DNA from: an uncultured Rickettsiales bacterium
GTDB lineage: Bacteria > Pseudomonadota > Alphaproteobacteria > Rickettsiales > UBA8987
Reading direction: 5' to 3'
Assembly: GCA_964445765.1 (NCBI GenBank)
Contig: CAYULD010000004.1
Location: 83,296-147,295, forward strand
DNA length: 64,000 nucleotides
Shown: positions 2,053 to 59,925 of the stretch, in pieces
Position numbering within the stretch: the stretch's first letter is position 1
Layout: the number at the start of each line of letters is the position of its first letter
Made by a program: the position numbers and the translations under genes
The notes under the pieces: generated by a model
The model's input: the letters and a program-made list of their open reading frames with translations, nothing else
Databases searched by the model: none
What the model was told of the DNA's origin: nothing

Positions 2053-3484
2053 AAATTCTGCCATTAATGAAAAATTTTGTTTTAGCATTTTTGATTTTTC
2101 TTATTTCCCTTTCTTCAATTTCGGCAATCTCATTTTTTAATTCTGTATCTCTATTTTTGTAAGTGGTTTTATCAAGATGTTGATATTTAAGGTGATTATT
2201 CTGTTTGTTTATTTTTTCTTTATGCTCAATTAGTGTAACTTCTTGCTTAGAAATTACAGAATTTTGCTGAAACCTTTTAATTTGCTCTTTAAGAGTTTGC
2301 CTTGTTTTTGAGAGTTTTTGTCTTTCATATTCAACTAACTTTTTTTCTTCATCAGTTAGAGAGTTATAATCTTGCTCTTTCCAATAACCTCTATTGATAA
2401 CCTCCACCAAACGCAAAGCCCACTTTTCTTCAATTTCTGGCTCTTTAACATCTTGATCATTGAAGGTTTTGCCTTTTCTTTCCCTTCTGCGATTATCTTT
2501 TTTTCTGCTGTTAATATTTTCTAAGATTGAGGGATCAACAATTTCACTCATATCTTCTATAAGCCCTAAATTTTTTAGGGCAAAGGCAAGGCCATAACTG
2601 CTTAATACAAAAATTGTGTTATTGCTTCTTCTTCTTAAATCTTGAATTTTTTTTCTCGCACCAACATCTTCAGAAATTACAAGAGTTACAAGGCCTTTGT
2701 TAGTTTCACGCCTTTTTGAAAGTAAAAAATTTTCAATTGATTCTTCGCCTTTATCGTGCCTGAATATAGAAAATTCATCATCATTTTTTAAGCTATTTGA
2801 AGTTATAACACTTGTATAAATAGCCTGTAAAATAAAGGGTGTTGATTCTGGCAAAGCTCGCATTGTTTTTTGAAAAGTTCTAGATAATTTCAATTTTTCT
2901 GCGTGCTTAAAATCTTCTTCTATAAATTTATCATCAAAACCTTTTAGGCGATCTTGAAATTCAATTCTTCTATAAACTTTATCAAGCTCTTTGAGTAAGA
3001 TTTTATAGGCAGTTTCAAGTTGTAATCTGATTAATCTATAATCATCTTTAACCCTTTCGTAAGTTAGTGAAGAAAGCCTTTCGGGGTAATATTTTTCAGT
3101 AAATTTATTAAGCTCATTAAAAACTTTATCCCTCAGATTATTTTCATCAATAATCTTGAAAGCCCTAATCATAAAATAGAATTTATAGGCTTGGGAAATA
3201 TCTGTTTCTACGAATAGAATATTGCCTTTATTTCTTCTATAAAATTCGTGGAAAGCCCCATTTTTATCAAAGTTTGAAAGTTCAGTTTCTAAAAATTCAA
3301 TGAAGATTTTTCTTTTTGTTTCAATGCCAACTTGAAGTGGGATAAGAAAGTAACTGCCATCAAAAACAGGCCCTTGTTTTGTTTCTTGAGTGAGGAGTTC
3401 AAGGCCCCTAAGAACATTTTTTCCTGAGCTACAGCTATCAAATATAATCTCTAAAAAACTGCGTTTTTTATAAGTACTCATCAA
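2027..3484 (-). CDS. Hypothetical protein (485 aa) with a K/E-rich coiled-coil C-terminal third
   Basis: A long uninterrupted ORF in AT-rich DNA with no motif I can assign. The track start at 3484 is TTG, and an ATG follows at 3481. The 3' end overlaps the rnhB 3' end convergently by 26 nt. Confidence 0.6.
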   Translation of the reverse strand: MMSTYKKRSFLEIIFDSCSSGKNVLRGLELLTQETKQGPVFDGSYFLIPLQVGIETKRKIFIEFLETELSNFDKNGAFHEFYRRNKGNILFVETDISQAYKFYFMIRAFKIIDENNLRDKVFNELNKFTEKYYPERLSSLTYERVKDDYRLIRLQLETAYKILLKELDKVYRRIEFQDRLKGFDDKFIEEDFKHAEKLKLSRTFQKTMRALPESTPFILQAIYTSVITSNSLKNDDEFSIFRHDKGEESIENFLLSKRRETNKGLVTLVISEDVGARKKIQDLRRRSNNTIFVLSSYGLAFALKNLGLIEDMSEIVDPSILENINSRKKDNRRRERKGKTFNDQDVKEPEIEEKWALRLVEVINRGYWKEQDYNSLTDEEKKLVEYERQKLSKTRQTLKEQIKRFQQNSVISKQEVTLIEHKEKINKQNNHLKYQHLDKTTYKNRDTELKNEIAEIEEREIRKIKNAKTKFFINGRIFNSFYPAL

Positions 3485-5860: not shown

Positions 5861-6562
5861 ATGCCTGAAGTAATTATCCCCGGTCCAGCTGGAAGAATTG
5901 AAGGAAGATATCACCATAATGATGATGGAAACTCTCCAGTGGCACTTGTTTTGCATCCTCACCCAAAACATGGTGGCACAATGAATAACAAAGTTGCGTA
6001 TAGTATTTACAAAGCATTCGCGGTAAATGGATTTTCTGTTTTGCGTTTTAATTTTAGAGGGGTTGGAAAATCTGAGGGGAGTTTTGATAACGGAATTGGC
6101 GAGCTTACAGATGCGGCAGCTTGTTTAGATTGGCTTCAAAAAATGAACCCAGATGCTTCAACATTTTGGATTTCCGGTTTTTCTTTTGGTGCTTGGATTT
6201 CATTTCAACTTCTTATGAGAAGGCCAGAGCTTGAGAGCTTTGTTTGTGTATCTCCGCCTGCAAATATGTATGATTTTTCATTTCTTTCACCTTGCCCTCG
6301 TTCGGGTTTAATTGTTCAGGGTGATGAAGATAGCATTGTTGATGAGCCCTCAGTTAGAAAACTTGCAGATAAATTGAATGCCCAAAAAGATATAGAGGTT
6401 GATTATCGCATTATCAGGGGTGGTGATCACTTTTTTAGGGGTTTAGGTGATAATTTAGATGATGCACTAAGGCAATATGTTAAAGTATATTCTGAGCCTC
6501 TAAAGAAAAGGGGAAGAATCAAGCTGGACAAAAAACGCCGCCAGTTGCCGAAGACATCTTAA
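5861..6562 (+). CDS. Alpha/beta-fold hydrolase (COG2945-like)
   Basis: HPHPKHGGTMNNKV and the nucleophile elbow GFSFGA are present. I use the ATG at 5861, preceded by AGAGG. The last 15 codons are encoded by direct-repeat copy 1. Confidence 0.8.
   Translation: MPEVIIPGPAGRIEGRYHHNDDGNSPVALVLHPHPKHGGTMNNKVAYSIYKAFAVNGFSVLRFNFRGVGKSEGSFDNGIGELTDAAACLDWLQKMNPDASTFWISGFSFGAWISFQLLMRRPELESFVCVSPPANMYDFSFLSPCPRSGLIVQGDEDSIVDEPSVRKLADKLNAQKDIEVDYRIIRGGDHFFRGLGDNLDDALRQYVKVYSEPLKKRGRIKLDKKRRQLPKTS
6517..6562. repeat. Direct repeat copy 1 (46 bp, AATCAAGCTGGACAAAAAACGCCGCCAGTTGCCGAAGACATCTTAA)
   Basis: By direct reading it is identical to 8844-8889. Read on the plus strand it supplies the hydrolase C-terminal tail IKLDKKRRQLPKTS and the stop. 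Confidence 0.95.
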
Positions 6563-8843: not shown

Positions 8844-8889
8844 AATCAAGCTGGACAAAAAACGCCGCCAGTTGCCGAAGACATCTTAA
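8844..8889. repeat. Direct repeat copy 2 (46 bp)
   Basis: Identical to 6517-6562. Read on the minus strand it encodes the native AnmK C-terminus KMSSATGGVFCPA and the stop. Confidence 0.95.
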
Positions 8890-20149: not shown

Positions 20150-20285
20150 ATTAATTAATTTTAGTTGTTTATTGTAAAAATGATAATTTGAGGCTTGAAA
20201 TTTGCTAAACCTGAAATTTAAGGTTGGCTTAATGCAAAAGAATTATAATTGCAAGAAATTTGTTTGAGTTTTGTATTTAATGCTT

Positions 20286-20314
20286 AACATCTGGGTAAAA
20301 TTTACCCAGATGTT
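20286..20314 (-). terminator. Hairpin downstream of the 1517-aa gene (possible terminator)
   Basis: A 14-bp stem, AACATCTGGGTAAA / TTTACCCAGATGTT, sits 23 nt after the stop. No strong T-run follows on the minus strand. Confidence 0.45.
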
Positions 20315-20336: not shown

Positions 20337-23300
20337 TTAAAAGCTAAATGAGTCCACTTGATTTAGTGGGTCAACTTGATTTGAATCAGCTTGATTTAGT
20401 GTGTCGCTATTTATTTCTATAAATTCAACAGGGGCAATTGAGCTAGCAATTAAGTCGCCATCTACTAAAATTGAATACTCATTATAATCAGAATTGATAA
20501 TATTTGGTGCAAGTTCAATATTTTCAACCTCGGAAACTAAATTTGTAAGTTCTGTTACCTTTGCATTAATAATTTTTTCAAGTGGGCCAGTGATATTTCC
20601 AATTAAACTCTTACTTAAAAACTTACCTAAAGATTCATTGATGTCCGCAACAGATTCAGATAATTTTTCTATTTGATCTGTTAAAACGGTTATTTTTTTA
20701 AAAGCGTCATCAATATCAAAAGGTTTTTTTGGTAAACCTTCTCCAATGATTTTAACTTCGAAAGATTTTTCTAATTTAGCACCTGCAATAGGCTCTGATC
20801 CTTGATATGCTTCAATGTATTTTTTAAAAGAAAGTTCTAGATTATCCCCCTTTGCTAAATTTTTAGTAACATAATCTAATGCTTCTTGATTTTTAAGCAT
20901 AATTTGTATTCCTATTTCTCCACCCTCAGCATTTTCTATGCCTTTCCAATCAAAGAGTTCTTCAAAGTTTTTGCCATTTAACCCTTTTAATATAGGTTGG
21001 TCTTTCATTCCAATATTTGCATTGTCGCTATTATGGTCAAAGATAATGGTGGCAAGTGGTTGAGATAAGCTCAGGTGACTTTCTTTAATTTCAACTTTTT
21101 CAGTGCCATTTTCATTGTTTGAATTTAACATCTGTAAAGTTAGAGAAATATCGTTTGTAGATTGAGCTAAAACATCATCACTTGCAGGTGCAGTTACTGG
21201 TACAGAAGTTTGATTTGAGCTTGAAGCTGTCGCTGATGTTTGCTTAGCAGGTGCAGTTAGTGCATCATCACTTGCAGGTGTAGCTACGGAATTATTACTT
21301 TGATCTGCATCAAAAACATATAATCCACTATCATTATTAATATTTGCACTTAAAACTGATGCATCTGTTCCGTTTCCATTTCCTGAGTTGCTTACTGGTC
21401 CTTTTGAAAAAGATGAATACCAAACGAAGCCATCTTTCAAATTATTAGAGCCGTATGAACCTTCATATGGTATTTTTGTAATTAAGAAGTCATTTGATCC
21501 AATTAATTGATTGAGCTTATTTTGACCCGTGGCCGTTATACCCATAAAGCCAGTTCCATCGGGTGCAACTCCTGCTAAAATATCCGTTCCAACCAAAAGT
21601 GACCCAACATTTTGCCCTTGTGTTGTATAAAGTTCAATAGTTTGGGCATTTATTTTGAAAGTATTAAAAGTTTGATTAGTGCCAGTTACAAACTGAGTTA
21701 TTGCCTGTTGAGGGTTAACTTTAGAAATATCAAAATTATAAAAGGCATTCGTATCGTTTAGTGCTAAATTTCTAAAACCAAGCACATCCTTGTTATAATT
21801 ACCAACTAGTTTAGTGGTGTCAGCTGTGTCTTGATCTCCTTCATCAATGCTGGCCTTTTCTTGCCAAGCATCCATAGGTTTTCTATTCATATCATAAAGA
21901 TCTTTGATAACATTTGGTGGTGTTGGTGTAGGAGATATGCTGTTGCCACCCCCATTATTATTTCCACCGCCTGTATTGCCACCAATTGTAGAATTAGTAA
22001 AAGCTACAATAAAATTGTTATTATCAGAACCTAAAGAATTTAAAAAACTATTTCCTGAGAGCTGACCAAAAACTGGGTTATTACCAGCTTGTTGCATTAA
22101 ACCGCTTAGTAAGCTGTATCCTGCTGGCGTTAAAAATACATTTATAACTCCGTTATTAGCTACATTAAAATCAAGATGTGTTCCTGCTTTTAAGGAAATT
22201 GATAGGTTTGGATTTCCAAAAACACTCAAATTTAGATCTCCTAATATAGCAAAGCCATTTGTGATACTTGGATCTTTTGGTGTTGCAACAATTAGAGGTG
22301 AATTTGCACTTATTGCTGAGAAACTAAATTGATTATTAACAGTTAAGTTGCTAGGGAAAGTAAAAGTATAGCTGTCTACATCATTACTACCCGCGGGGCC
22401 TGATGGGTCAAATGACATCAATGTAGGATTGCCGGGGGTTTTGCCAACAGTTAATGAGCCACCATTGTTATTTCCGCCAACTAATTGAGAGTTTGCATTG
22501 GCAGATGTGCCAGTGCTATTATTAATTGGTACTGCCGTAGATAAGTTTGAGGAAGAGCTTGAATTCAGGTTATTGTTACTGGTTCCCAAGTTATTTGATA
22601 TTGAGCTATTATTTGTGCTAGTTGACAAGTTATTTTGTGTATTAATTTGGCTTTGTTGCATAGCATTTGTTAAGCTTCCCATATTAAATAATCCAGAGCT
22701 TACTGAGTTAGAACTTCCCGAGTTAGAAAGATTATTATTTATTGGAGTTGAAGAAATTGGGTTGCTCTGTTGCATTCCAATATTCGCCATATTGCTTTGA
22801 TCAATATCAGTAGTTACTGGGTTAATACTAACTGAATCTAGGGAGTTATTGTTTGCATTGCTACTATCTGATAATGAGGTGCTTTTTGTGATTGGAACTG
22901 ATAATTGGAAGTAATCAACATCACCTTTTGCATTTACGAATCCAACTGCGTTTTTAGCATTTATTGTTATGTTTTGTTGAAATTGTGATGGAATGTTTTT
23001 GATTAAATTTACACCAGCTTGGGTTAAAGAAAGTTGACCGTTAGAAACAACATAATGCGTATTGAGTTGTAATTGAAGGGTTACAACGCTTGTTCCTACG
23101 GTTTGGTAAGAAACATCTAGTTTTCCTAAAATTGGATTCTGATTAACGCCCGTTGAGCCTGAAAAGTAAACTAGAGGTTGATTTGCTGATAAATTTGTAA
23201 TATCAATTGCTTGTTTATTGCTTGTTAATATAGAGGGGTTTAGGCTTGCTTTAATTAAATCAACATCGTTATTACTAGAATCGGTTATAAGGTTAGGTTG

Positions 23301-24890
23301 TTGAACTAATGAGGTGTTATTTTGTGAAGTGTTGCTAGAATTTGTGTTTGAGCTTAATGATGTATTATCATTAGAACTAGATTGTTGGCTTGAATTTGTT
23401 CCAGATGTATCATTTGTATTTCCAGAGGAGCCACCATTGACACCAGATTGTTGACCGTTTGATTGGTTTGAACTGCCAGCTGATGAAGTTATATCATCAA
23501 GAATTTGTTGAATTTGATCGTATGTTTTGCCAGTCGCATTAGCAATTGATAATAGATCTAAATGATTATTAAATAAGTATCCAAATACTTCCTGCTCTGT
23601 TTCAGCATTCATTAATTCTTTCAATTCTTGAATTGAACTTATCAAATTATAGTTAACACCATTAAGCTCATTAGGAGGTAAAAAATTGCCTCCGATTTTT
23701 AAAATCCCATAATATGGTATCCATATAGCTCCCTTTGATTTAATTTCTTCTTGAATATGAAAAAATGGAACTCCGTGATTGGATATTACTGAGCTAAGAA
23801 TTTCTTTTGCAAGATCTTGATCGCTTAATTGTGCTAATAAGTATTCACCTAAGTGAGCAGAAAGCCCGCTTCCGAAATCATAATCAACTTTTTTTCCAGC
23901 AAAATTTGCTGTACCAGATGTGTAGGCGTTTATACCTTGCCACACTCTATCACCTAGTGCAACAGCCGCATTATCTAATCCAGAATTTTCAACATCCCTG
24001 TATGTTTCGCATCCATTGCTAAGATCTGTTTCAATTTCCATTAAAAATTTTCCTAGTGGTGGCCTTTCTCTGTTTGACTCATAAATTGTAAAATTAAAAC
24101 TTACTAGGCTTGCTCCATTACCATTAATATTATCTGTAATTCCTCCTATTATAGAAGCACCATTTTGTGTTAAATTAATTGATACTTCTGTTCCGGTGTC
24201 CACTATAAGATAATCCTGATTTATTTTCATAGTGTAATTTACAGAGCCTTTTGTAACTGTAATGTTTCCAAAAACTCCAATATCCAATCCATTTAATGAA
24301 GTAAATTTAACTATTGTATCTCCTTGTTTTAAAAATTCTACTGCGTGTAACTTAGGGCTTAATTCTACGCCTAGCTGATCATTTCCTCCAGATGCATCAA
24401 TAGGGTTTGCTTGATTCAGAATATCTTCGGTGGTTAAAAATTCAGCGTTTCTATATACATTTTGTTCAGCAATTATTGTGTTACTAGAACCTTGAGTTAC
24501 ATATACTCCAAAATCAAAACTTATATCATTATTAAGAAGTCCTGCGGTTTCTGCAATTATCATTAACGATTTTGTTGCTTGCGTTGTTAAAGCATAATTT
24601 CCTGATTGTGTAGGAATAATAGGGTTGCTAGGAAATGAAAAATTATTTGGGAGACTAATACCCTGAGATGATAATTGTGCTAATATTGTGGAAGGAGAAG
24701 TTAAATCTAACGTTATTTCTGAGCTTCCATTTATAATTTTAATAGATTTTAGGGCTACTTTGTCTGTCAGACCTTTTCCCGTTACTTTAATAATGTCTAA
24801 AGGTTGAAATTGAGTGAATTGTGTTGCTGTCATTAAAGACTCAAAAAGATTTAATTGGTTCCCATTATTGTGCGTGATTAAAATTGTCAT
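20337..24890 (-). CDS. Giant low-complexity protein (1517 aa), probable secreted or surface protein without a signal peptide
   Basis: A 4.5-kb uninterrupted ORF in AT-rich DNA. It has N/S/T/G-rich linkers between beta-rich segments. A GGGGGA SD sits 3 nt before the ATG. No hydrophobic N-terminus. Confidence 0.8.
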   Translation of the reverse strand: MTILITHNNGNQLNLFESLMTATQFTQFQPLDIIKVTGKGLTDKVALKSIKIINGSSEITLDLTSPSTILAQLSSQGISLPNNFSFPSNPIIPTQSGNYALTTQATKSLMIIAETAGLLNNDISFDFGVYVTQGSSNTIIAEQNVYRNAEFLTTEDILNQANPIDASGGNDQLGVELSPKLHAVEFLKQGDTIVKFTSLNGLDIGVFGNITVTKGSVNYTMKINQDYLIVDTGTEVSINLTQNGASIIGGITDNINGNGASLVSFNFTIYESNRERPPLGKFLMEIETDLSNGCETYRDVENSGLDNAAVALGDRVWQGINAYTSGTANFAGKKVDYDFGSGLSAHLGEYLLAQLSDQDLAKEILSSVISNHGVPFFHIQEEIKSKGAIWIPYYGILKIGGNFLPPNELNGVNYNLISSIQELKELMNAETEQEVFGYLFNNHLDLLSIANATGKTYDQIQQILDDITSSAGSSNQSNGQQSGVNGGSSGNTNDTSGTNSSQQSSSNDNTSLSSNTNSSNTSQNNTSLVQQPNLITDSSNNDVDLIKASLNPSILTSNKQAIDITNLSANQPLVYFSGSTGVNQNPILGKLDVSYQTVGTSVVTLQLQLNTHYVVSNGQLSLTQAGVNLIKNIPSQFQQNITINAKNAVGFVNAKGDVDYFQLSVPITKSTSLSDSSNANNNSLDSVSINPVTTDIDQSNMANIGMQQSNPISSTPINNNLSNSGSSNSVSSGLFNMGSLTNAMQQSQINTQNNLSTSTNNSSISNNLGTSNNNLNSSSSSNLSTAVPINNSTGTSANANSQLVGGNNNGGSLTVGKTPGNPTLMSFDPSGPAGSNDVDSYTFTFPSNLTVNNQFSFSAISANSPLIVATPKDPSITNGFAILGDLNLSVFGNPNLSISLKAGTHLDFNVANNGVINVFLTPAGYSLLSGLMQQAGNNPVFGQLSGNSFLNSLGSDNNNFIVAFTNSTIGGNTGGGNNNGGGNSISPTPTPPNVIKDLYDMNRKPMDAWQEKASIDEGDQDTADTTKLVGNYNKDVLGFRNLALNDTNAFYNFDISKVNPQQAITQFVTGTNQTFNTFKINAQTIELYTTQGQNVGSLLVGTDILAGVAPDGTGFMGITATGQNKLNQLIGSNDFLITKIPYEGSYGSNNLKDGFVWYSSFSKGPVSNSGNGNGTDASVLSANINNDSGLYVFDADQSNNSVATPASDDALTAPAKQTSATASSSNQTSVPVTAPASDDVLAQSTNDISLTLQMLNSNNENGTEKVEIKESHLSLSQPLATIIFDHNSDNANIGMKDQPILKGLNGKNFEELFDWKGIENAEGGEIGIQIMLKNQEALDYVTKNLAKGDNLELSFKKYIEAYQGSEPIAGAKLEKSFEVKIIGEGLPKKPFDIDDAFKKITVLTDQIEKLSESVADINESLGKFLSKSLIGNITGPLEKIINAKVTELTNLVSEVENIELAPNIINSDYNEYSILVDGDLIASSIAPVEFIEINSDTLNQADSNQVDPLNQVDSFSF

Positions 24891-24944
24891 ATATCCCCCG
24901 ATAGAATAAAAATAAATTAGTTAAAATTTTATATTAATTTTTGT

Positions 24945-24993
24945 ATTATATATTAAAAATTAGTTAATATCAAGAAAATTAGTAAAATTTTAA
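24945..24993 (-). promoter_or_regulatory. Predicted sigma-70-type promoter of the 1517-aa gene, within a conserved block
   Basis: On the minus strand: -35 TTGATA (24973-24968), a 17-nt spacer, and -10 TATAAT (24950-24945). An upstream A/T 19-mer follows. The block recurs at 32392-32440. Confidence 0.55.
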
Positions 24994-25108
24994 CCGTTTC
25001 TTATTTGTATCTCTAACATATTGAAATCTAATAAAAATTGTATTTTTAAAAATTTATAATTAAAAGCTTGAATTCAAATTCAATATTGTTATTATAGTGT
25101 TTAACTAA

Positions 25109-25130
25109 GGTGGGCTTGCCCGCCTTTTTT
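25109..25130 (+). terminator. Terminator-like hairpin in the rimP-nusA leader (possible attenuator)
   Basis: GGTGGGC-TT-GCCCGCC followed by TTTTTT, 46 nt upstream of the rimP ATG. A candidate promoter lies just upstream: TTGAAT (25068-25073), a 16-nt spacer, then TATTAT (25090-25095). Confidence 0.5.
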
Positions 25131-25175
25131 GTTGCTTAAATTTATAACCTGTTTCACTTGAACAATTATATCTAA

Positions 25176-29206: not shown

Positions 29207-29278
29207 GTCATTTCGAGCAAAGCGAGAAATCTCATAGAGTTATAAAACAACGAGATATCTCGCTTCGCTCGATATGAC
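29207..29278. repeat. GTCAT...ATGAC palindromic repeat (72 bp)
   Basis: GTCATTTCGAGCAAAGCGAGAAATCTC ... GAGATATCTCGCTTCGCTCGATATGAC. The arms are about 27 bp with a few mismatches. Confidence 0.85.
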
Positions 29279-29364
29279 TCTGGTAGAAATCTATACCTAT
29301 TAGTATTGCCTTGGCAGATTGTATCATCAGAATTTAATAAAAATTTTCTATTGAATATATTAGT

Positions 29365-29399
29365 AAAATAAAAAGCCCTGTAATTATAAATTACAGGGC
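29365..29399 (-). terminator. Rho-independent terminator after the 964-aa gene
   Basis: On the minus strand: GCCCTGTAAT...ATTACAGGGC followed by TTTTTATTTT. Confidence 0.8.
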
Positions 29400-29441: not shown

Positions 29442-32336
29442 TTAAGAAATTTCAAAGCAACCACCAAGGCCAAGTTGATTCAATACATTTGCAACGGTTG
29501 CAGCATCTGGGCAAGCTAAATCTCCGCATATATCTCTCATTTCTCTAATAACTAAAACATTTCCAATTTCATTTCCTTGAGAATCTGTGTTTCTAAGCTC
29601 TGAATCCCAAAAGGCTTGATCAATATATCCGCCATTTGTTCTAATAGCTCCACCCCATAATTCCTGACCAACTGGTGTATCAATACCTTCTTCATATCTT
29701 AAACTACAACCACTACCAAGAGAGCTATTCGTAACATTATTAGCAGGTGCCATATTTTGAGATGAATTATCATCATTGTAAAAATCAAAATTATCAAAAC
29801 CTATAGAATAATTTGTTTCTTCAATTTCTTCCACAGGTAATGAGATTTGATTTTGAGTATTCTGAGTTTGTGAAGTCTGATTTGAGTTTGATAATAAATT
29901 ATTTTGCCAGCTTGCGCCAATATTTGAAAATGAATTATTTGCAAAATTCACAATAGGCTCTGCAGGCTGTTGATAAAAATCATTAGCAGGTGCAGAATAA
30001 TTGGAGCTTGAACCTAAAAATGATAAAAATGAGTTAAAGCTATAAGTTGGTGTTGATGGTTCATTAATAGCTGGAACTAATTCAGGCATAACAATATCAG
30101 AGGTTTTTTCTATGGTTGCAACATTTTCTGCACTAGTTTTATCTTCTACAAAATTTAGATTTGATGGTAATTCTAATGGCATCATTGCAAGGCCTGCATA
30201 ACTTGAACTTACTTCAGTGCTCTCTATATTTTCTTGATCTTCTTCTTTAACTTCAGTAACGGTTTGAACAACTTCTATAGTTTCATAATTTTTGTCATTT
30301 GCTTCATCTGCTTTGTTTTGAATAACTTCCTCAAATGATGGCTCTCTTTGTATGGATTTTATGCTATTAGATTCAGACTTGTCAGCAATATCAATGATAA
30401 TAATTCCTTCATTTGTCTCTTCTGAAATTTTATTATCTAATAAGCTTTTTTCTTGTTCTTCTGATTGTTTTGTTGAGTTGCTAGCATATGAAACATCTTC
30501 AGCGCCAGATAATAATGGTTCTTGTTCAACTTCTGCCTCTAATGTATTATTTGTAGAATCAGCTTCTTTAACTATTTGATTATTGTTTAAATTGCCAGTT
30601 AGTTTTTGTGTTAGAGCTGATAATTTTGCTATTTTTTCAGAAAAACTTAGATTTGATTTAGAAAATAAATCACTTATTTCTCTTGCTATGCTATTTTCCA
30701 TATCTGGTTCTTGTTTCTTAGGTTGAATAATATCTTCATTATTTTCTGAGCTGTTTGCTTCAACTATTTCGATATTTTGCTCTTCTATTTGTATTTCTGA
30801 ACCTACTTTCTCATCTAAACTTTTGGGTTGTTCATTCCAATTGCCAAAGTTAAATAATCCAGAGTTGCTTTCTGTTGCAATAGCTTCATTAGAGGAAACT
30901 TCTTCTTTAGCTTCTTGGTTTTCAACAACTATTATTTCTTCTTCAGCTGGTATTTCAACTTGTTTAATATCACTCACAGGTTCTACTGAAGTATTGTTAA
31001 TTTTGCTTAGTAAGAACGCTAAGCTGGAATTTTCAGCGGGCATTGAAACATTTTCATTTTGGGTTGATACTGAGTTGTTTTGAACTGGTTGTGTTTCTTG
31101 AATAGTTTGTTCAACATTATTAGTATTTTCTGAAATCTCAATTGCTCCAATATCTACAATTTCTGATACGATATTATTTTCACTTGGTGCTTGTTCCTCA
31201 ATAGGTTTTTCTATTAAACCCAATTCTACTTTGGCAGAGAATAAATTTTCAAAGCCTAATAATTCAGAGGTTCTTTCTTCTCCAAAATTAATTTCTAAGG
31301 CTGAAATTAAATCTGCTATTTTACCCCTAGCATAAGGACTATCTTCATAATTTCCCAGACCTTTCTTTTGAATGAAATCATAAACACCTGAAAAGTGAGG
31401 AATATTTGCTTGGGAAATGAAAGATGGGATTTTTGAGTTTGAGATGCCTATGAAACCTATCTCTGGAACGAATTCAAAACCTGCTTTTGACATTAAATCT
31501 ATAGCATAGGTTGGTAATGCAGTTCCTTCTGAGTCTTGGTAAATTTCTTTCATTAAGTTTGAAACAGTTCCTTTTTTTACTGCATCAACTAACTTTAAAT
31601 AATATTGTTGATCAACTATATTTGAAGGGTTGTAAGGTACTAAAACTTTAGTGTTTCCTACATTTATTACTTGAGGGTCAACGCCATTGTGTGATGATCG
31701 TTGAAAGCTATTTAAAGGGTGATTTGAATTTGGCCAAGTATAACCTTGCTTAGAAAGAGAGTTCCAAGCTGCACAACCTGCCTGACCTATGTCAAAGGAA
31801 AATTCTACATTTTCAAACCTTGTATTTGGCGTAGTGCTTTGGATTTCTATAAAGGCTTCAAATCTTCCGCCACCTAGCATAACAGCTGTTGAAGCGGTAG
31901 CAATTGCAGAATCAGATAAGAAAAATTCTATACTATTGCCATCAGCTGATAATTTGTGAGTAATCTGGTTTCTAGGAATTATAATTTCTTCACCAGTTCT
32001 ATCTAAGATAATTTTGAATGATAAATTATTTGAAGAATTTGCACTATTAAGACCAATAATATCTAAATCACCCGGCAAGTTAGTGCCATTTGCTGATTCA
32101 AAATTATGGCTATCTTTAACTTGAATCTTAACTAATGGTGTATCTGAGGTAATTCTAGAAAAATACGTTGCAAAAGCAGATACATCAATATCATATTTAT
32201 CGGAAAAGCCTGTTGAGCCTCCATCTATAGTAAGATTGGGATTAAGTATATTAGACATTGCCTCTTCTAATTTTTGAAGTGTATCCAAATATTTTGGATT
32301 GTTGTTACTTGAAGTTTGATTCCATCTCAAAGGCAT
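29442..32336 (-). CDS. Large low-complexity protein (964 aa), probable paralogue of the 1517-aa protein
   Basis: An uninterrupted 2.9-kb ORF with no signal peptide. The centre is E/N/S/Q-rich and the C-terminal ~90 aa contain several Cys. It has the same promoter block and the same GGGGGA SD spacing as the 1517-aa gene. Confidence 0.8.
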   Translation of the reverse strand: MPLRWNQTSSNNNPKYLDTLQKLEEAMSNILNPNLTIDGGSTGFSDKYDIDVSAFATYFSRITSDTPLVKIQVKDSHNFESANGTNLPGDLDIIGLNSANSSNNLSFKIILDRTGEEIIIPRNQITHKLSADGNSIEFFLSDSAIATASTAVMLGGGRFEAFIEIQSTTPNTRFENVEFSFDIGQAGCAAWNSLSKQGYTWPNSNHPLNSFQRSSHNGVDPQVINVGNTKVLVPYNPSNIVDQQYYLKLVDAVKKGTVSNLMKEIYQDSEGTALPTYAIDLMSKAGFEFVPEIGFIGISNSKIPSFISQANIPHFSGVYDFIQKKGLGNYEDSPYARGKIADLISALEINFGEERTSELLGFENLFSAKVELGLIEKPIEEQAPSENNIVSEIVDIGAIEISENTNNVEQTIQETQPVQNNSVSTQNENVSMPAENSSLAFLLSKINNTSVEPVSDIKQVEIPAEEEIIVVENQEAKEEVSSNEAIATESNSGLFNFGNWNEQPKSLDEKVGSEIQIEEQNIEIVEANSSENNEDIIQPKKQEPDMENSIAREISDLFSKSNLSFSEKIAKLSALTQKLTGNLNNNQIVKEADSTNNTLEAEVEQEPLLSGAEDVSYASNSTKQSEEQEKSLLDNKISEETNEGIIIIDIADKSESNSIKSIQREPSFEEVIQNKADEANDKNYETIEVVQTVTEVKEEDQENIESTEVSSSYAGLAMMPLELPSNLNFVEDKTSAENVATIEKTSDIVMPELVPAINEPSTPTYSFNSFLSFLGSSSNYSAPANDFYQQPAEPIVNFANNSFSNIGASWQNNLLSNSNQTSQTQNTQNQISLPVEEIEETNYSIGFDNFDFYNDDNSSQNMAPANNVTNSSLGSGCSLRYEEGIDTPVGQELWGGAIRTNGGYIDQAFWDSELRNTDSQGNEIGNVLVIREMRDICGDLACPDAATVANVLNQLGLGGCFEIS

Positions 32337-32391
32337 AATTCCCCCATTTAATTTAGGATTTTATTTAAATTTTAATAGTTAATATTTTATT

Positions 32392-32440
32392 AATATATAT
32401 TAAAAATTCGTTAATTGCAACAAAATTAATAAAATTTTAA
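32392..32440 (-). promoter_or_regulatory. Predicted sigma-70-type promoter of the 964-aa gene, within a conserved block
   Basis: On the minus strand: -35 TTGCAA (32420-32415), a 17-nt spacer, and -10 TATATT (32397-32392). The block matches 24945-24993 at 43 of 49 positions by hand alignment. Confidence 0.55.
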
Positions 32441-32530
32441 TCATATTTTATTTAAGATAAAAATTATTATTTGATTAGTCTCATTTATAATCTATAAGTC
32501 TTCATCAAAATTTAACTAAGCATTTGAATT

Positions 32531-35626: not shown

Positions 35627-36676
35627 CTAATCTTCTCTGGCAAGTTTTTCTTCAAGCTCGTGTTGCTCTTGTGCGGCGATAGTCATTGTTGCTATTGGCC
35701 TAGCTTCTAGCCTTTTTAAGCCTATAGGGTCGCCTGTAACTTCACAAAAACCATATTCACCTTCATCAATTCTTTTAAGGGCGTTATCAATTTTGTTTAT
35801 TAATTTGCGATATCTATCTCTAGTTCTAAGCTCTAAGCCAGTTTGTTCAACGATAGTTGCTTGATCCGAAGGGTCTGGCTCATTCCAAGTTTCAACCTGT
35901 AAATGTTCAATAGTTTCATTAGATTCATTCAGTAATTCTTTCTTCCAAGCCTCAAGTTTTCTTCTAAAATACTCAACTTGAAGTGGGTTCATATATTGTT
36001 CATCTTCAGAAGGCTTATAGTTTTCAGGTAGGATAACTTTTCCAGTTTTATCTTTTTTTACATCAATTTTTTTTGCTTTATTTTCCATCTTTTTATAAGT
36101 TTTTGCGTTGCTATTAGATGGCTTTATCTGCTTTGATTTTTTATTTTTATCAAGCTCTTTTTTTCTATCAGCGATAAAATTTTCTCTTGCATCTGGGAAA
36201 GATGGTATGAGCATCACACTTGGCTTTTTAAGAATTGCCGGTTGGCTTTGGTTAAGTGCAATTTTAAGCTCCCCCTTTACATTTGGAATGTCATTTAATA
36301 AAATAGTTTCTTCTTTCTTTTCTAGCTTTGTAGCTAGCTTTAGAGAAGGTTTTACAATTTTTATTTTATCTTTTGCCTTATCAATTTTAGTGTTAATTTT
36401 TTTTATATTTTTACTTTTTGGTAAAGTTTTTTTAATTTGTTTTTCAGGCTTCTTTAATTGGCTTTGCTTTGAAATTTCTTTCTTAGCAATTTTTTTATTG
36501 CTTTTAGCGATTGGTTTTTTAGTTTTTACTATGCTCTTTTTGTTTGAAGACTGTTTTTTAATAATTTTTTTAGGTGCTTGTTTTACTTTTTTTACAGGCT
36601 TTTTTGTTTGAATTTTCTTAGCAGGCTTAGAAATTTTTTTAGCTGGTTTTACAATTTTCTTGCTTTTTTTTGCCAT
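35627..36676 (-). CDS. dksA: DksA-family RNA polymerase-binding factor with a ~215-aa lysine-rich N-terminal extension
   Basis: The C-terminal 135 aa align with DksA (LPENYKPSEDEQYMNP, tip DPSDQA, GLKRLEARP). The zinc finger reads C-x2-T-x17-T-x2-A instead of four Cys. The N-terminus is built of AKK/KPAKKI-type repeats. Confidence 0.8.
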   Translation of the reverse strand: MAKKSKKIVKPAKKISKPAKKIQTKKPVKKVKQAPKKIIKKQSSNKKSIVKTKKPIAKSNKKIAKKEISKQSQLKKPEKQIKKTLPKSKNIKKINTKIDKAKDKIKIVKPSLKLATKLEKKEETILLNDIPNVKGELKIALNQSQPAILKKPSVMLIPSFPDARENFIADRKKELDKNKKSKQIKPSNSNAKTYKKMENKAKKIDVKKDKTGKVILPENYKPSEDEQYMNPLQVEYFRRKLEAWKKELLNESNETIEHLQVETWNEPDPSDQATIVEQTGLELRTRDRYRKLINKIDNALKRIDEGEYGFCEVTGDPIGLKRLEARPIATMTIAAQEQHELEEKLARED

Positions 36677-37909: not shown

Positions 37910-40588
37910 ATGCATAGTGCAACTTATAAAAGGCTATTTATTGTTGATGGATATTCCTATGTTTTTAGGGCTTATCACTCTTTGCCGCCTCTTACAAATA
38001 AGGCTGGGCTTCCAGTTGGTGCGGTTTATGGCTTTACAAATATGATTATGAAATTAAAAAATAAAGTAAGCACAAATAATGCTGAAAATATTTATTTAAT
38101 ATTAGTTTTTGACTCTGGCAGAGATAGTTTTAGGAATGAAATTTACCCAAATTATAAAGCTAATCGCCCTGAAGCACCAGAAGATCTCAAACCTCAATTT
38201 GAAATAGTAAGGGAAGCCGCGATTGCATTAAATCTTGAACCCATTGAAGTTATTGGCTTTGAAGCTGATGATATTATTGCCTCATACGCAAAAGTTGCAA
38301 AGCAAGAAGGGTTTAAGGTTACTATAGTTTCTATTGATAAAGATTTAATGCAGTTAGTTGATGATGATATAAATATGTATGACCCAATGCGGGATAGGGT
38401 TATAACAAGCAAAGAAGTTCAAGAAAAATTTGGTGTTATGCCTCATCAAGTTTTAGATGTGTTGGCTTTAATGGGTGACAGCTCAGATAATATACCCGGT
38501 GCGAAAGGAATTGGAATAAAAACTGCCGCAGAATTAATTAATCAATTTGGTGATATTGACAATTTAATCAATAACTTATCGCAGGTTAAGCAGGAAAAAA
38601 GAAGAAATATTTTATCAGAAAATATAAATAATATTTATTTATCAAAAAAATTAGCCTCATTAGATTTTAATGTTCCACTAAATTATAATTTTGAAAATTT
38701 TAGAATTAAAGAAAATGATGAAAATATATTATATGATTTTCTGAATAAGTATAATTTTAATTCTTTATTGTCAAAATTAAAAATTAAAAAAGAATTAAAT
38801 TTGGAAAACTCTGTTGTAGTAAATAATAATTCCCAAAATAACATTAATATAAGTAAATCCGAATTTAATTTTTTAGAAATTAAAGAGGTTTCTGCTAATC
38901 AACCTTCTGATTTATTGGCGTTATTTGATAGGCGTAGCCTTCAGAATATATATATATATTATTCTGAAATTGAGAGTTGCAAATTGCAAATTTTATTTTC
39001 AAATTATGAATATTGTGTTTTAGATGTATCAGGTTTGTTTGAGGTAAAAGATGGGGAATTATTTACTGAAAATAAAAATAATTACTCAAGAGATTATATA
39101 AATATTATTCAGAAAAAATTTTTTGATAATTCTAATAAATTTATTTTTTATGACGCAAAAAATTTATTAGAAAAAAACATTTTTCAAAAATTACCTAATA
39201 ATTTTGACGATATAAAAATTATTTCATATTTATTATTTGGCTCAGGTGATAAAATTAATTTTAATTATTTAATAAATAAATTTATTTCCGGAGATTATAT
39301 AAATCAAAATGTTAAAGTTAATTTAATGGATTTTATTTATAATAAATTAAATTATTTATTATTTATTTCTAAGCAAAATTTTATTTATAATGAAATTGAA
39401 ATTCCATTAATTAGCATTTTATTTAATATGCAAAAATTTGGAATTAAGTTAGATTTACAAAAATTAAAAGATTTGGAAAGCCAATTTAATAATTTATTAT
39501 TAAAATTAACATCTGAAATTTATTTATTGGCTAATTGTGAATTTAATGTTGCCTCCCCAAAACAATTAGGGGAGGTTTTATTTGATAAATTAAAATTACC
39601 TGCCCCTAAAAAAAGTAAGACGGGTCAATATGTTACTGATATTGATGTGCTGGAAGATTTATCAGCTTCTGGTTTTGAAATTGCCTCAAAAATTATTGAG
39701 CATCGCTCAATTTCAAAATTACTCTCAACTTACATAGTCTCTTTACAAAAAGAAGTTAATAATATTACAAAAAGGGTTCATACTCATTTTAATAATACTG
39801 CAACAACAACTGGAAGGCTCTCTTCAACGAATCCTAATTTGCAAAATATTCCAATAAAAACAGAGGAAGGCAGAAAAATTAGAGATGCCTTCATTGCAGA
39901 AGAAGGAAAAGTTTTAATTGGTGCGGATTATTCTCAGATTGAATTAAGGCTTCTTGCGGAGATTGCGGATATAAAATCACTAAAGCAGGCGTTTTTAGAG
40001 AGTAAAGATATTCACCAAGCAACAGCCTCAGAAGTTTTTGGTGTTCCATTAAGTGAGGTTAACTCAGAATTAAGAAGGAAGGCAAAGGCAGTAAATTTTG
40101 GTATTATATATGGGCAAAGTGCTTTTGGGCTTGCTAATCAGCTAAAAATTTCGCGTGCGGAGGCAAAAAATATCATTGATAGATATTTTTCTCGTTATCC
40201 TGAAATTAAAATTTATATGGATAAAACCATTGATTTTGCCCATAAAAATGGCTTTGTAACAACAATTATGGGAAGAAAAATTTATCTACCAAATATAAAT
40301 GATAAAAATGCAACTTTGCGTGCATTTCAAGAGAGGGCTTCAATAAACGCACCACTTCAAGGTAGTTCAGCTGATATTATAAAATTAGCAATGATAAATA
40401 TTTCTAAGGCAAATATTTCTGCAAATTTATTACTGCAAATTCACGATGAGCTTATTTTTGAAGTGTCTTCAGAAAATGCTAAAAGTGAGGCTTTAATTAT
40501 AAAAAAGCTGATGGAAAATGTAATTAATCTCTCAGTGCCATTAATTGTAGATACAAAAATTGGCAATAATTGGGGCGAGGTTCATTGA
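37910..40588 (+). CDS. polA: DNA polymerase I
   Basis: It has the 5'-nuclease domain (FIVDGYSYVFRAYH, GDSSDNIPG) and polymerase motifs A, B and C (LIGADYSQIELR, RRKAKAVNFGIIYG, QIHDELIFE). The central region is N/I/K-rich and divergent. Confidence 0.95.
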   Translation: MHSATYKRLFIVDGYSYVFRAYHSLPPLTNKAGLPVGAVYGFTNMIMKLKNKVSTNNAENIYLILVFDSGRDSFRNEIYPNYKANRPEAPEDLKPQFEIVREAAIALNLEPIEVIGFEADDIIASYAKVAKQEGFKVTIVSIDKDLMQLVDDDINMYDPMRDRVITSKEVQEKFGVMPHQVLDVLALMGDSSDNIPGAKGIGIKTAAELINQFGDIDNLINNLSQVKQEKRRNILSENINNIYLSKKLASLDFNVPLNYNFENFRIKENDENILYDFLNKYNFNSLLSKLKIKKELNLENSVVVNNNSQNNINISKSEFNFLEIKEVSANQPSDLLALFDRRSLQNIYIYYSEIESCKLQILFSNYEYCVLDVSGLFEVKDGELFTENKNNYSRDYINIIQKKFFDNSNKFIFYDAKNLLEKNIFQKLPNNFDDIKIISYLLFGSGDKINFNYLINKFISGDYINQNVKVNLMDFIYNKLNYLLFISKQNFIYNEIEIPLISILFNMQKFGIKLDLQKLKDLESQFNNLLLKLTSEIYLLANCEFNVASPKQLGEVLFDKLKLPAPKKSKTGQYVTDIDVLEDLSASGFEIASKIIEHRSISKLLSTYIVSLQKEVNNITKRVHTHFNNTATTTGRLSSTNPNLQNIPIKTEEGRKIRDAFIAEEGKVLIGADYSQIELRLLAEIADIKSLKQAFLESKDIHQATASEVFGVPLSEVNSELRRKAKAVNFGIIYGQSAFGLANQLKISRAEAKNIIDRYFSRYPEIKIYMDKTIDFAHKNGFVTTIMGRKIYLPNINDKNATLRAFQERASINAPLQGSSADIIKLAMINISKANISANLLLQIHDELIFEVSSENAKSEALIIKKLMENVINLSVPLIVDTKIGNNWGEVH

Positions 40589-59906: not shown

Positions 59907-59925
59907 AAATTTATTACCTGTTAGT

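What the first reader, a model, noticed from the sequence alone, without database searches (positions are those of the whole stretch)
24891..24995. The two largest genes in the window share one promoter cassette at the same distance from their start codons
The upstream regions of the 1517-aa gene (ATG 24890) and the 964-aa gene (ATG 32336) are collinear. The 49-nt blocks 24945-24993 and 32392-32440 differ at 6 positions by hand alignment. They start 55 and 56 nt from the respective ATGs. Read on the coding strand, each block gives a near-consensus promoter. The first is TTGATA, 17 nt, TATAAT. The second is TTGCAA, 17 nt, TATATT. Each is preceded by an almost identical A/T 19-mer (TTAAAATTTTA[C/T]TAATTTT) placed like an UP element or activator site. 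Both genes also have a GGGGGA Shine-Dalgarno sequence exactly 3 nt before the ATG. No other gene in the window has this arrangement. This argues for a dedicated co-regulated gene family rather than chance AT-rich similarity.
Basis: seen in the sequence. Interest (0 to 1): 0.68.

Follow-up and report, generated by a model that had tools for sequence, protein, structure and literature searches.

The report
Conserved shared promoter with CtrA-type boxes
Two very large, fast-evolving proteins of unknown function in an uncultured Rickettsiales bacterium are driven by nearly the same ~50-bp promoter region, which a sister species keeps upstream of both counterpart genes and which carries several matches to the binding motif of the cell-cycle regulator CtrA, so the two genes are probably switched together.

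Summary
The 49-nt blocks 24945-24993 and 32392-32440 match at 43/49 positions, inside a 70-nt ungapped match of 83%. They are the only two copies in the window. Each reads as a near-consensus sigma-70 promoter (TTGATA-17-TATAAT; TTGCAA-17-TATATT), followed by an unstructured leader of about 48 nt and a GGGGGA Shine-Dalgarno site, in a window where most genes have none.

New evidence: each protein has exactly one detectable homologue, both in one sister MAG (Rickettsiales bacterium GCA_033762595.1), at the same genomic positions. Both homologues carry the same block (43/49 and 44/49 identical to their window counterparts). Four-fold degenerate sites between the species are only 36-58% identical, and the proteins are about 40-48% identical overall. 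The block is therefore under strong purifying selection.

My reading: a shared sigma-70 promoter overlaid with TTAA-N7-TTAA boxes, the alphaproteobacterial CtrA motif. The four promoters hold 1, 2, 3 and 2 perfect boxes within -60..+15, against about 0.1 expected each. This is a plausible CtrA-gated pair, not yet shown.

A true gene family is not established; there is only weak evidence for remote paralogy. I could not scan either whole genome or find ctrA. The finding is a new member of a known kind and of moderate interest.

The parts
24937..25006 (-). Cassette copy 1: the conserved block upstream of the 1517-aa gene (70-nt repeat unit)
   Evidence: (family D5). 43/49 identical to copy 2 and 43/49 identical to the sister-species counterpart in L003.
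24979..24993 (-). Box 1 of copy 1: TTAA-AATTTTA-CTAA (one mismatch to TTAA-N7-TTAA). It is the start of the 19-mer 24975-24993, at about -55..-41.
   Evidence: The box is perfect in the other three promoters.
24968..24973 (-). -35 hexamer TTGATA
   Evidence: The sister-species counterpart has the same hexamer.
24953..24967 (-). Box 2 of copy 1: a perfect TTAA-CTAATTT-TTAA that fills the first 15 nt of the 17-nt spacer (-29..-15)
24945..24950 (-). -10 hexamer TATAAT. The predicted transcription start is near 24938.
   Evidence: The start site is inferred, not mapped.
24894..24899 (-). Shine-Dalgarno GGGGGA, 3 nt before ATG 24890
20337..24890 (-). 1517-aa gene. The protein is acidic (pI 4.35) and N/S-rich, with no Pfam, NCBIfam, PHROG, PADLOC or PDB match and no transmembrane segment. 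Its only homologue is P0002 in the sister MAG.
20285..20314 (-). Perfect 30-nt palindrome AACATCTGGGTAAAATTTTACCCAGATGTT, 23 nt after the stop codon. There is no T-run. It may be a terminator or a stabilising hairpin.
   Evidence: read from the sequence. The function is inferred.
32384..32453 (-). Cassette copy 2: the conserved block upstream of the 964-aa gene
   Evidence: 44/49 identical to the sister-species counterpart in L018.
32426..32440 (-). Box 1 of copy 2: a perfect TTAA-AATTTTA-TTAA (-55..-41), within the 19-mer 32422-32440
32415..32420 (-). -35 hexamer TTGCAA
   Evidence: The sister-species counterpart has the same hexamer.
32400..32414 (-). Box 2 of copy 2: a perfect TTAA-CGAATTT-TTAA (-29..-15)
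32392..32397 (-). -10 hexamer TATATT. The predicted transcription start is near 32385.
   Evidence: The start site is inferred.
32379..32393 (-). Box 3 (964-aa family only): TTAA-TAAAATA-TTAA followed by C, spanning about -8..+7. The sister species has TTAA-CAAATAA-TTAAC at the same position.
32340..32345 (-). Shine-Dalgarno GGGGGA, 3 nt before ATG 32336
29442..32336 (-). 964-aa gene. The protein is acidic (pI 4.18) and S/N/E-rich, with no family match. Its only homologue is P0004 in the sister MAG. The N-terminal ~380 aa are moderately conserved and the C-terminal ~90 aa are highly conserved; the middle is variable.
29375..29399 (-). Intrinsic-terminator-like hairpin followed by a T-run, 43 nt after the stop of the 964-aa gene. 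It implies a single-gene transcription unit.

Best explanation
The block is a shared sigma-70-type promoter and operator cassette. It drives two single-gene units that encode large, acidic, N/S-rich, fast-evolving proteins of unknown function.

**Shown**
- A near-consensus -35/17 nt/-10 promoter in all four copies.
- An unstructured AT-rich leader of about 48 nt (39 nt in one copy).
- A strong G-rich Shine-Dalgarno site, in a window where most genes have none.
- Conservation of the block in four promoters (two genes in each of two species), well above neutral sites and above the proteins themselves.
- The -35 variant follows orthology (TTGATA for the 1517-aa family, TTGCAA for the 964-aa family). 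The two cassettes therefore already existed before the species split.

**Inferred**
- The extra conservation outside the hexamers reflects binding of the alphaproteobacterial response regulator CtrA. Its consensus is TTAA-N7-TTAA(C).
- Box 1 lies at -55..-41, box 2 at -29..-15 inside the spacer. The 964-aa family also has box 3 at -8..+7, and the MAG copy of that family has a box 0 at -66..-52.
- The core hexamers are already strong, and boxes 2 and 3 lie where RNA polymerase must sit. The most likely logic is repression, or dose-dependent dual control, by phosphorylated CtrA. This resembles the two-site hemE Ps promoter of Caulobacter. Box 1 may add UP-like or activator input.
- Under this reading both genes would be expressed strongly and together in one stage of the life cycle.
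For: **Promoter anatomy**
- Searches give the hexamers and spacing.

**Only two copies in the window, above chance**
-.

**Conservation in the sister MAG at the same genomic positions**
- The mlaE-murJ/sucB side is.
- Block identity between counterpart promoters is 43/49 and 44/49.
- Identity at four-fold degenerate sites is 36-58%. Housekeeping proteins are 92-93% identical, and the two large proteins are 67% and 39% identical in their N-terminal domains.
- Conservation ends at the -10 hexamer and resumes only at the Shine-Dalgarno site.

**No RNA structure**
- Leader folding gives z-scores of about 0.4-0.6 and no covariation.

**CtrA-type boxes**
- The -60..+15 regions hold 1, 2, 3 and 2 perfect TTAA-N7-TTAA boxes, against 0.06-0.11 expected each. 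The shuffle P values are 0.09, 0.002, 0.0002 and 0.005.
- 9 of the 25 perfect boxes in 91 kb fall in these four promoter regions.
- Among the window's intergenic regions, 4 of the 5 perfect boxes are in the two cassettes.
- In boxes 2 and 3 the TTAA halves are kept while the N7 spacer varies.

**Literature**
- The CtrA consensus is TTAA-N7-TTAAC. CtrA is conserved across alphaproteobacteria, including all sequenced Anaplasmataceae (order Rickettsiales) (PMC9791040).
- Rickettsia prowazekii ctrA complements a Caulobacter ctrA deletion, so the binding site is conserved (PMC2877005).
- The hemE Ps promoter has CtrA sites at -35 and over -10 that bind cooperatively and repress (PMC11264516).
- In Ehrlichia, CtrA is high at the stationary, infectious stage and is degraded on entry into the host cell (PMC4251998).

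**Context**
- The lineage encodes FliX, part of the Caulobacter-type flagellar hierarchy.
Against: - I recognised the CtrA motif after seeing the sequence, and the DNA is 84-91% A+T.
- Window-wide, TTAA-N7-TTAA is not enriched: 16 found against 15.8 expected.
- The N7 spacer of box 1 is invariant in all four copies. CtrA binding alone does not require this, so another constraint (UP-like A4T4 tract, DNA bending or a different protein) also acts there.
- Box 2 is degenerate in one copy (TTGA-N7-TTAT in the MAG 826-aa promoter).
- The boxes flank the -35 hexamer rather than overlap it. Overlap is the usual position in CtrA-activated promoters (PMC11264516).
- fliX would be a natural CtrA target, but it has no conserved box upstream.
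- No ctrA gene lies in the window or the fetched loci, and I could not search the rest of the genome.
- No transcription start, expression or binding data exist for this organism.
Confidence: 0.6

Rival explanations
1. The block is a plain, strong, constitutive sigma-70 promoter with a UP-like A/T element and no dedicated regulator. The two copies descend from one ancient duplication of promoter plus gene start. They are kept alike only because both genes need very high expression.
For: - Near-consensus hexamers at 17-nt spacing.
- An A4T4 tract upstream that matches the distal half of the UP consensus AAAWWTWTTTT at 9-10 of 11 positions (sequence; consensus from PMC2412878).
- A strong Shine-Dalgarno site where most genes in the window have none.
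- An unstructured leader.
- Weak hints that the N-terminal domains are remote paralogues.
Against: - A sigma-70 promoter does not need 14 of 17 spacer positions conserved, yet three of the four copies conserve them.
- The UP match is 4 nt out of register and lacks the proximal AAA subsite.
- Perfect TTAA-N7-TTAA boxes are strongly over-represented.
- Box 3, downstream of the -10, is conserved between species inside an otherwise unconserved leader.
Confidence: 0.25
2. The block is an operator for a different, unidentified AT-specific DNA-binding protein of this lineage, not CtrA. The TTAA periodicity would be a by-product.
For: - The N7 spacer of box 1 and the flanking TTTT are invariant, beyond what CtrA needs.
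- The block has nested dyad symmetry around the -35 hexamer.
- fliX has no conserved box upstream.
Against: - No candidate regulator lies next to either gene. The DNA-binding or RNA-polymerase-binding regulators in the window are an IscR-like Rrf2 protein and DksA, and neither fits this sequence.
- Rickettsiales have very few DNA-binding regulators. In Ehrlichia chaffeensis only NtrX and CtrA among the response regulators bind DNA (PMC4251998).
- The motif found is exactly the published CtrA consensus.
Confidence: 0.1
3. The conserved block is part of the transcript, for example a 5' leader RNA element or a small RNA, rather than a promoter.
For: None specific; the only point in its favour is that the block is conserved.
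Against: - No stable or conserved fold and no covariation. The consensus energy is -2 kcal/mol, and two of the three z-scores are near zero.
- No Rfam match.
- The conserved part ends exactly at a -10 hexamer and the following ~45 nt are free to vary.
Confidence: 0.02
4. The block serves the divergent neighbours (rimP-nusA and mlaE-murJ), or it is a generic intergenic repeat or chance AT-rich similarity.
For: Both copies lie in divergent intergenic regions.
Against: - The distance to the large-gene ATG is nearly constant (103/104/103/94 nt). The distance to the divergent ATGs varies between copies (coordinates).
- mlaE has its own conserved candidate promoter, TTGATT-N16/17-TATAAG/A. rimP has a separate promoter-like site plus a conserved hairpin.
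- Only two copies occur in 64 kb, and none elsewhere in the 27 kb of sister-species DNA.
- There are no related matches in 185,579 species genomes or in JGI metagenomes.
- The pair scores far above chance pairs.
Confidence: 0.03

Closest known systems
CtrA-controlled promoters of Alphaproteobacteria, especially the two-site hemE Ps promoter and the multi-site pilA promoter of Caulobacter crescentus
   Same: - Several TTAA-N7-TTAA(C) boxes sit within one promoter.
- One box variant, TTAA-N7-CTAA, is identical in form to the hemE Ps second site.
- Boxes overlap the elements RNA polymerase needs, which in Caulobacter gives cooperative repression or dose-dependent control (PMC11264516).
- The CtrA binding specificity is conserved in Rickettsiales (PMC2877005, PMC9791040).
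   Different: - No box overlaps the -35 hexamer, which is the usual position for activation. The boxes flank a near-consensus TTGNNA hexamer instead.
- The genome is extremely AT-rich, so the motif carries less information.
- The spacer of box 1 is invariant.
- Binding and the presence of ctrA in this organism are untested.
Strong sigma-70 promoters with a UP element (the E. coli rrnB P1 type)
   Same: - Near-consensus hexamers at 17-nt spacing.
- An A/T-rich tract between about -38 and -57 with an A-run followed by a T-run.
- The design is consistent with very high expression.
   Different: - The match to AAAWWTWTTTTNNNAAA covers only the distal half and is shifted by 4 nt.
- The spacer between the hexamers is also conserved, which a UP-type promoter does not need.
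CtrA regulon of Ehrlichia chaffeensis (ompA, bolA, surE, gshA/B, gst)
   Same: - It belongs to the same order, Rickettsiales.
- It has stage-specific control by CtrA, with TTAA-N7-TTAAC motifs in target promoters (PMC9791040, PMC4251998).
   Different: - Those promoters are activated by CtrA, and a single motif lies far upstream (for gst, -181 to -166 from the start codon).
- Here the boxes are clustered on the core promoter, and the target genes are lineage-specific proteins found nowhere else.

Membership tests
Sigma-70-type promoter | -35 and -10 hexamers close to TTGACA and TATAAT, spaced 16-18 nt apart | tested here: met
   TTGATA-17-TATAAT (11/12) and TTGCAA-17-TATATT (9/12) in the window. 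The sister species has TTGATA-17-TATTAT and TTGCAA-17-TATATT.
Sigma-70-type promoter | Transcription starts about 7 nt downstream of the -10 hexamer | not testable with these tools
   No transcript data are available. This needs 5'-RACE or dRNA-seq.
UP element | Match to AAAWWTWTTTTNNNAAA at about -57..-41 (PMC2412878) | tested here: inconclusive
   AAAATTTTAYT matches the distal 11-mer at 9-10 of 11 positions, but it starts at -53, and the proximal AAA is TTT in these promoters (read from the sequences).
CtrA-regulated promoter | Presence of the TTAA-N7-TTAA(C) motif in the promoter (PMC9791040, PMC11264516) | tested here: met
   The four promoters hold 1, 2, 3 and 2 perfect boxes within -60..+15, and the MAG 826-aa promoter has one more at -66. 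Box 3 of both 964-family promoters is followed by C.
CtrA-regulated promoter | Motif occurrence above what base composition predicts | tested here: met
   Expected 0.06-0.11 perfect boxes per 75-nt region. P = 0.09, 0.002, 0.0002 and 0.005 from 20,000 shuffles each. The four tests are not independent, because the sequences are homologous, and the motif was chosen after seeing the data.
CtrA-regulated promoter | Half-sites conserved between species while the N7 spacer is free to vary | tested here: inconclusive
   Met for box 2 (N7 = CTAATTT, CGAATTT, CCCTTTT) and box 3 (TAAAATA vs CAAATAA). Not met for box 1, whose N7 (AATTTTA) is invariant.
CtrA-regulated promoter | Box overlaps the -35 position, as in most CtrA-activated promoters | tested here: not met
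   The boxes lie at -55..-41, -29..-15 and -8..+7. This is closer to the layout of repressed promoters such as hemE Ps (PMC11264516).
CtrA-regulated promoter | The genome encodes CtrA, and CtrA binds the site | not testable with these tools
   No OmpR-type response regulator lies in the window or the fetched loci; there is only a 121-aa receiver-only protein. The rest of the genome could not be reached.
Paralogous gene family (1517-aa and 964-aa proteins) | Significant sequence or profile similarity between the two proteins | tested here: inconclusive
   BLASTP E = 0.23. hhalign probability 1.9%, E = 0.026. The score of 24.2 exceeds all but 2 of 150 column shuffles. One of four cross-species pairs has z = 4.7. 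Low-confidence AF2 models give the same order of 12 helices and strands in the same register.
Generic intergenic repeat (REP/MITE-like) | Many copies, not tied to particular genes | tested here: not met
   There are two copies in 64 kb. The 27 kb of sister-species DNA has one copy at each counterpart gene and none elsewhere. No related hits appear in the genome or metagenome collections. The whole source genome was not scanned.

The most novel reading that the evidence does not exclude
A module of promoter plus N-terminal domain was duplicated before the two species split. Since then the ~50-bp promoter and operator has been held almost unchanged, while the two proteins diverged beyond recognition. 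The cassette would be a multi-box CtrA switch that turns on, or shuts off, the two most strongly expressed lineage-specific secreted or surface proteins at one stage of the life cycle (infectious versus replicative). The organism is a flagellated Rickettsiales lineage with a cbb3 oxidase. This would give a direct handle on developmental gene control in uncultured Rickettsiales.
Probability: 0.25. Interest if true: 0.55.

Novelty: new member of a known kind. Interest (0 to 1): 0.4.

Why it matters
Regulatory DNA in uncultured, obligately host-associated Rickettsiales is almost unknown, and these bacteria have very few transcription factors. This ~50-bp promoter is more conserved than the proteins it drives. 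It is shared by two otherwise unrelated-looking giant proteins and carries several matches to the CtrA motif.

It gives a concrete, testable entry point in three ways:
- It nominates two lineage-specific, probably host-facing proteins as a co-regulated pair.
- It offers a short DNA probe for defining the regulon in complete genomes.
- It can be tested with heterologous CtrA in vitro, without culturing the organism.

If the CtrA link fails, the finding is still a well-supported, ordinary strong promoter.

Tried and rejected
**Scanning for more copies**
- A degenerate pattern (box 1, -35 and ATTAA) run against one genome per GTDB species gave 12 hits. I inspected the only Rickettsiales hit (L013); it lies inside an ORF.
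- The known copies were not returned, so neither source genome is in that collection.
- A stricter pattern run against JGI metagenomes gave one hit, which appears unrelated and sits among ORFs that look Bacteroidota-like.
- Extending the window through exact-protein look-ups returned only short Logan contigs of the same strain.
- The genome-wide regulon therefore remains undefined.

**Protein function**
- Pfam, NCBIfam, PHROGs, PADLOC and PDB sequence searches gave nothing for either large protein.
- A third homologue search, with an N-terminal-domain alignment, returned nothing.
- AlphaFold2 on two-sequence alignments gave mean pLDDT of 45.5 and 35.6. That is too low for fold searches, so I ran none.

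**RNA-element reading**
- No structure, no covariation and no Rfam family.

**Independent check of the CtrA idea**
- fliX has no conserved box upstream.

**Other regulators, checked by eye**
- An IHF consensus site, GANTC methylation sites and sigma-28 or sigma-32 promoter patterns are not present in the block.

**Sample origin**
- A literature search on the run and assembly accessions found nothing.
Full report
**What is in the sequence**

On the minus strand, the regions upstream of the 1517-aa ORF (20337-24890) and the 964-aa ORF (29442-32336) share a 70-nt ungapped match: 24937-25006 against 32384-32453, 83% identical.

Each core reads, on the coding strand, as follows:
- the 19-mer TTAAAATTTTA[C/T]TAATTTT;
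- one free base;
- a -35 hexamer (TTGATA or TTGCAA);
- a 17-nt spacer;
- a -10 hexamer (TATAAT or TATATT).

After the -10 hexamer there are 54 or 55 nt before the ATG, and these end in GGGGGA plus 3 nt.

**Is it more than chance?**

An all-against-all ungapped comparison of the 29 intergenic regions gives this pair a score of 40. Unrelated pairs reach at most 22, and only a REP-like repeat family at 58-61 kb scores higher. A profile of the block finds these two places and nothing else in the window (E about 1e-12; next best E > 2). The 19-mer has no other match with fewer than 3 mismatches.

**Surroundings**

The window is about 31% G+C. It encodes housekeeping genes of a Rickettsiales-type alphaproteobacterium:
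- fusA, rimP-nusA, sucB, mlaE-murJ;
- ATP synthase F0 genes;
- dnaK, polA, lptD/F, dksA and fliX;
- cbb3 oxidase genes.

Both large genes sit in divergent intergenic regions, opposite rimP and mlaE. Each is followed by a hairpin:
- a canonical terminator at 29375-29399;
- a perfect 30-nt palindrome at 20285-20314.

They therefore look like single-gene units.

Most genes in the window have no recognisable Shine-Dalgarno site. The G-run before these two start codons is exceptional.

**The proteins**

- Neither protein matches Pfam, NCBIfam, PHROGs, PADLOC or any PDB sequence.
- Both are acidic (pI about 4.2-4.4) and rich in N and S. Neither has a hydrophobic segment long enough for a membrane helix, and the N-termini do not look like signal peptides (by eye).
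- They are not detectably similar to each other by BLASTP (E = 0.23).

**Relatives elsewhere**

The 1517-aa protein has a single homologue among 5.8 billion proteins. It is P0002 (1392 aa, 41% identity), from MAG Rickettsiales bacterium GCA_033762595.1.

The 964-aa protein had no homologue in the word-indexed search. A full HMMER scan of 1.84 billion representatives found one, P0004 (826 aa, 42% identity over residues 8-474). It comes from the same MAG.

Both homologues sit at the same genomic positions as in the window:
- P0002 lies opposite rimP-nusA;
- P0004 lies between mlaE-murJ and sucB.

**The block is conserved in that second species, upstream of both genes**

- The counterpart promoters are 43/49 and 44/49 identical.
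- The -35 variant follows the gene: TTGATA for the 1517-aa family and TTGCAA for the 964-aa family. Both cassettes therefore predate the species split.
- The distance from the start of the block to the ATG is 103, 104 and 103 nt, but 94 nt for P0004. The spacing is similar rather than fixed.
- A G-rich Shine-Dalgarno site is present in all four (GGGGGA in three, GGGGAG in one).

**How diverged are the two species?**

| Comparison | Identity |
|---|---|
| Housekeeping proteins (NusA, MlaE, SucB) | 92-93% |
| Four-fold degenerate third positions | 36-58% |
| 1517-aa family, N-terminal domain | 67% |
| 964-aa family, N-terminal domain | 39% |

(All.) Four-fold sites are close to what composition alone gives.

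The block is thus conserved far above neutral sites and above its own genes. Conservation stops immediately after the -10 hexamer and reappears only at the Shine-Dalgarno site. That is the signature of a promoter or operator, not of a transcribed element.

Folding agrees. The leaders are unstructured (MFE -2.5 to -6.9 kcal/mol, z about +0.4 to +0.6). The consensus fold has -2 kcal/mol and no compensatory changes. No Rfam family matches.

**What explains conservation outside the hexamers?**

A sigma-70 promoter does not need a conserved spacer, yet 14 of the 17 spacer positions are shared by three copies. Reading the block for known alphaproteobacterial sites, I found the CtrA consensus TTAA-N7-TTAA(C) several times. 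The consensus is as printed in PMC9791040 and PMC11264516.

| Box | Position | Sequence and occurrence |
|---|---|---|
| 0 | -66..-52 | TTAA-AATATAC-TTAA in the MAG 826-aa promoter only; shares a half-site with box 1 |
| 1 | -55..-41 | TTAA-AATTTTA-TTAA, perfect in three copies; TTAA-N7-CTAA in the window 1517-aa copy |
| 2 | -29..-15 | TTAA-C..TTT-TTAA, perfect in three copies; degenerate in the MAG 826-aa copy |
| 3 | -8..+7 | TTAA-N7-TTAAC in both 964-family promoters |

The statistics are as follows:
- The 75-nt regions hold 1, 2, 3 and 2 perfect boxes against 0.06-0.11 expected from their own composition. The P values are 0.09, 0.002, 0.0002 and 0.005.
- Of 25 perfect boxes in 91 kb of sequence from the two species, 9 lie in these four promoters.
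- Of 5 perfect boxes in the window's intergenic DNA, 4 lie in the two cassettes.
- In boxes 2 and 3 the variable positions fall in the N7 spacer while the TTAA halves are kept.

**Cautions on the CtrA reading**

- I spotted the motif after seeing the data, and the DNA is 84-91% A+T.
- The four tests are not independent, because the sequences are homologous.
- Window-wide, the motif is at its expected frequency: 16 found against 15.8 expected.
- The N7 spacer of box 1 is invariant, so something more than CtrA constrains it.
- fliX has no conserved box upstream.
- No ctrA gene lies in the DNA I could reach.

**Mechanism proposed**

*Shown:* a conserved, near-consensus sigma-70 promoter with an unstructured leader and a strong ribosome-binding site. 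This design suits high expression, and two genes share it.

*Inferred:* CtrA binds the boxes. Boxes 2 and 3 lie where RNA polymerase must bind, and the hexamers need no activator. The most likely outcome is therefore repression or dose-dependent dual control. The two-site hemE Ps promoter of Caulobacter works this way, with sites at -35 and over -10, cooperative binding and repression (PMC11264516). Box 1, at -55..-41, could add UP-like or activator input. Its A4T4 tract matches the distal half of the UP consensus AAAWWTWTTTT at 9-10 of 11 positions, but 4 nt out of register (consensus from PMC2412878).

*Background from the literature:*
- The CtrA binding specificity is conserved in Rickettsiales (PMC2877005).
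- In Ehrlichia, CtrA is high in the stationary, infectious stage and is degraded on entry into the host cell (PMC4251998).

The pair would then be stage-specific. The sign of control is not known.

**Are the two proteins a family?**

This is not established.
- hhalign of the two two-sequence profiles gives probability 1.9% and E = 0.026 over 243 columns.
- Restricted to the N-terminal domains, the score of 24.2 exceeds all but 2 of 150 column shuffles.
- One of four cross-species Smith-Waterman comparisons has z = 4.7.
- The two low-confidence AlphaFold models give the same order of twelve helices and strands (H-E-E-H-H-E-E-H-H-H-E-E) in the same register as the hhalign match.

Together these hint at an ancient duplication of promoter plus gene, but they do not prove it.

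**Limits**

- Neither genome is in the searchable genome or metagenome collections. The pattern scans returned none of the known copies. The only Rickettsiales hit lies inside an ORF, and the single metagenome hit appears unrelated.
- Exact-protein look-ups reached only short contigs of the same strain.
- The regulon, the presence of ctrA, the transcription start sites and the expression pattern therefore remain open.

**Verdict**

A dedicated shared promoter and probable co-regulation hold; a gene family and a strictly fixed spacing do not. The UP or activator idea is refined to a CtrA-box reading at moderate confidence. The finding is a new member of a known kind and of moderate interest.

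Noticed in passing
window 25107-25135 (+), and L003 about 2319-2347 (-): A terminator-like hairpin plus T-run, AAGGTGGGCTTGCCCGCCTTTTTTGTTGC, lies 40-50 nt upstream of the rimP start codon. It is 29/29 identical in the two species, while the flanking intergenic DNA is barely alignable. No Rfam family reaches its threshold; the only hit is a weak L20-leader match at E = 0.03. It may be a leader attenuator of the rimP-nusA operon.
   Followed up: partly
window 6517-6562 and 8844-8889: A perfect 46-nt direct repeat brackets 2.3 kb holding two ORFs (196 aa and 528 aa) with no Pfam, NCBIfam, PHROG or PADLOC match. The left copy is the 3' end of an alpha/beta-hydrolase gene. The right copy overlaps the 3' end of anmK. 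It looks like an insertion with a duplicated target.
   Followed up: partly
window 58548-58629, 59925-60006, 60837-60918, 29207-29284, 63920-63995: A family of REP-like palindromic repeats (core ...TCGCTTCGCTC...GATGAC...) occurs in intergenic DNA. Copies lie between the cbb3 oxidase genes and just downstream of the 964-aa gene's terminator. The pair 59921-60077 / 60833-60989 is 157 nt long and 94% identical.
   Followed up: no
whole window (start-codon contexts): Most of the ~50 genes have no recognisable Shine-Dalgarno sequence. Besides the two large genes, only a few do (nusA, sucB, dksA, dnaK, ccoP, an ATP synthase b gene).
   Followed up: partly
window 32454-32530 and L018 9805-9906: The rest of the mlaE/964-aa intergenic region is also about 83% identical between the species. 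It includes a candidate mlaE promoter, TTGATT-N16/17-TATAAG/A, back to back with the cassette.
   Followed up: partly
window 29442-29720 (C-terminal ~90 aa of the 964-aa protein): The C-terminal ~90 residues of the 964-aa protein hold 4 cysteines and end in GLGGCFEIS. This domain is almost fully conserved with the sister-species protein, whereas the rest of the protein is about 40% identical or unalignable. The 1517-aa family likewise keeps its last five residues, DSFSF. These may be secretion or anchoring signals.
   Followed up: no
window 38784-38798 and L018 17434-17448: A perfect TTAA-N7-TTAA box lies at the same offset (874 nt) inside polA in both species, with a different N7 spacer. polA holds three perfect boxes in each species. 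Coding constraint probably explains this.
   Followed up: no
window 10492-12756 (-): A receiver-only response regulator (121 aa) lies directly upstream of a family-2 glycosyltransferase that carries an MshEN (c-di-GMP-binding type) domain.
   Followed up: no
window 35627-36676 (-): DksA here is 349 aa, with a ~220-residue N-terminal extension. The sister species' DksA is 153 aa.
   Followed up: no
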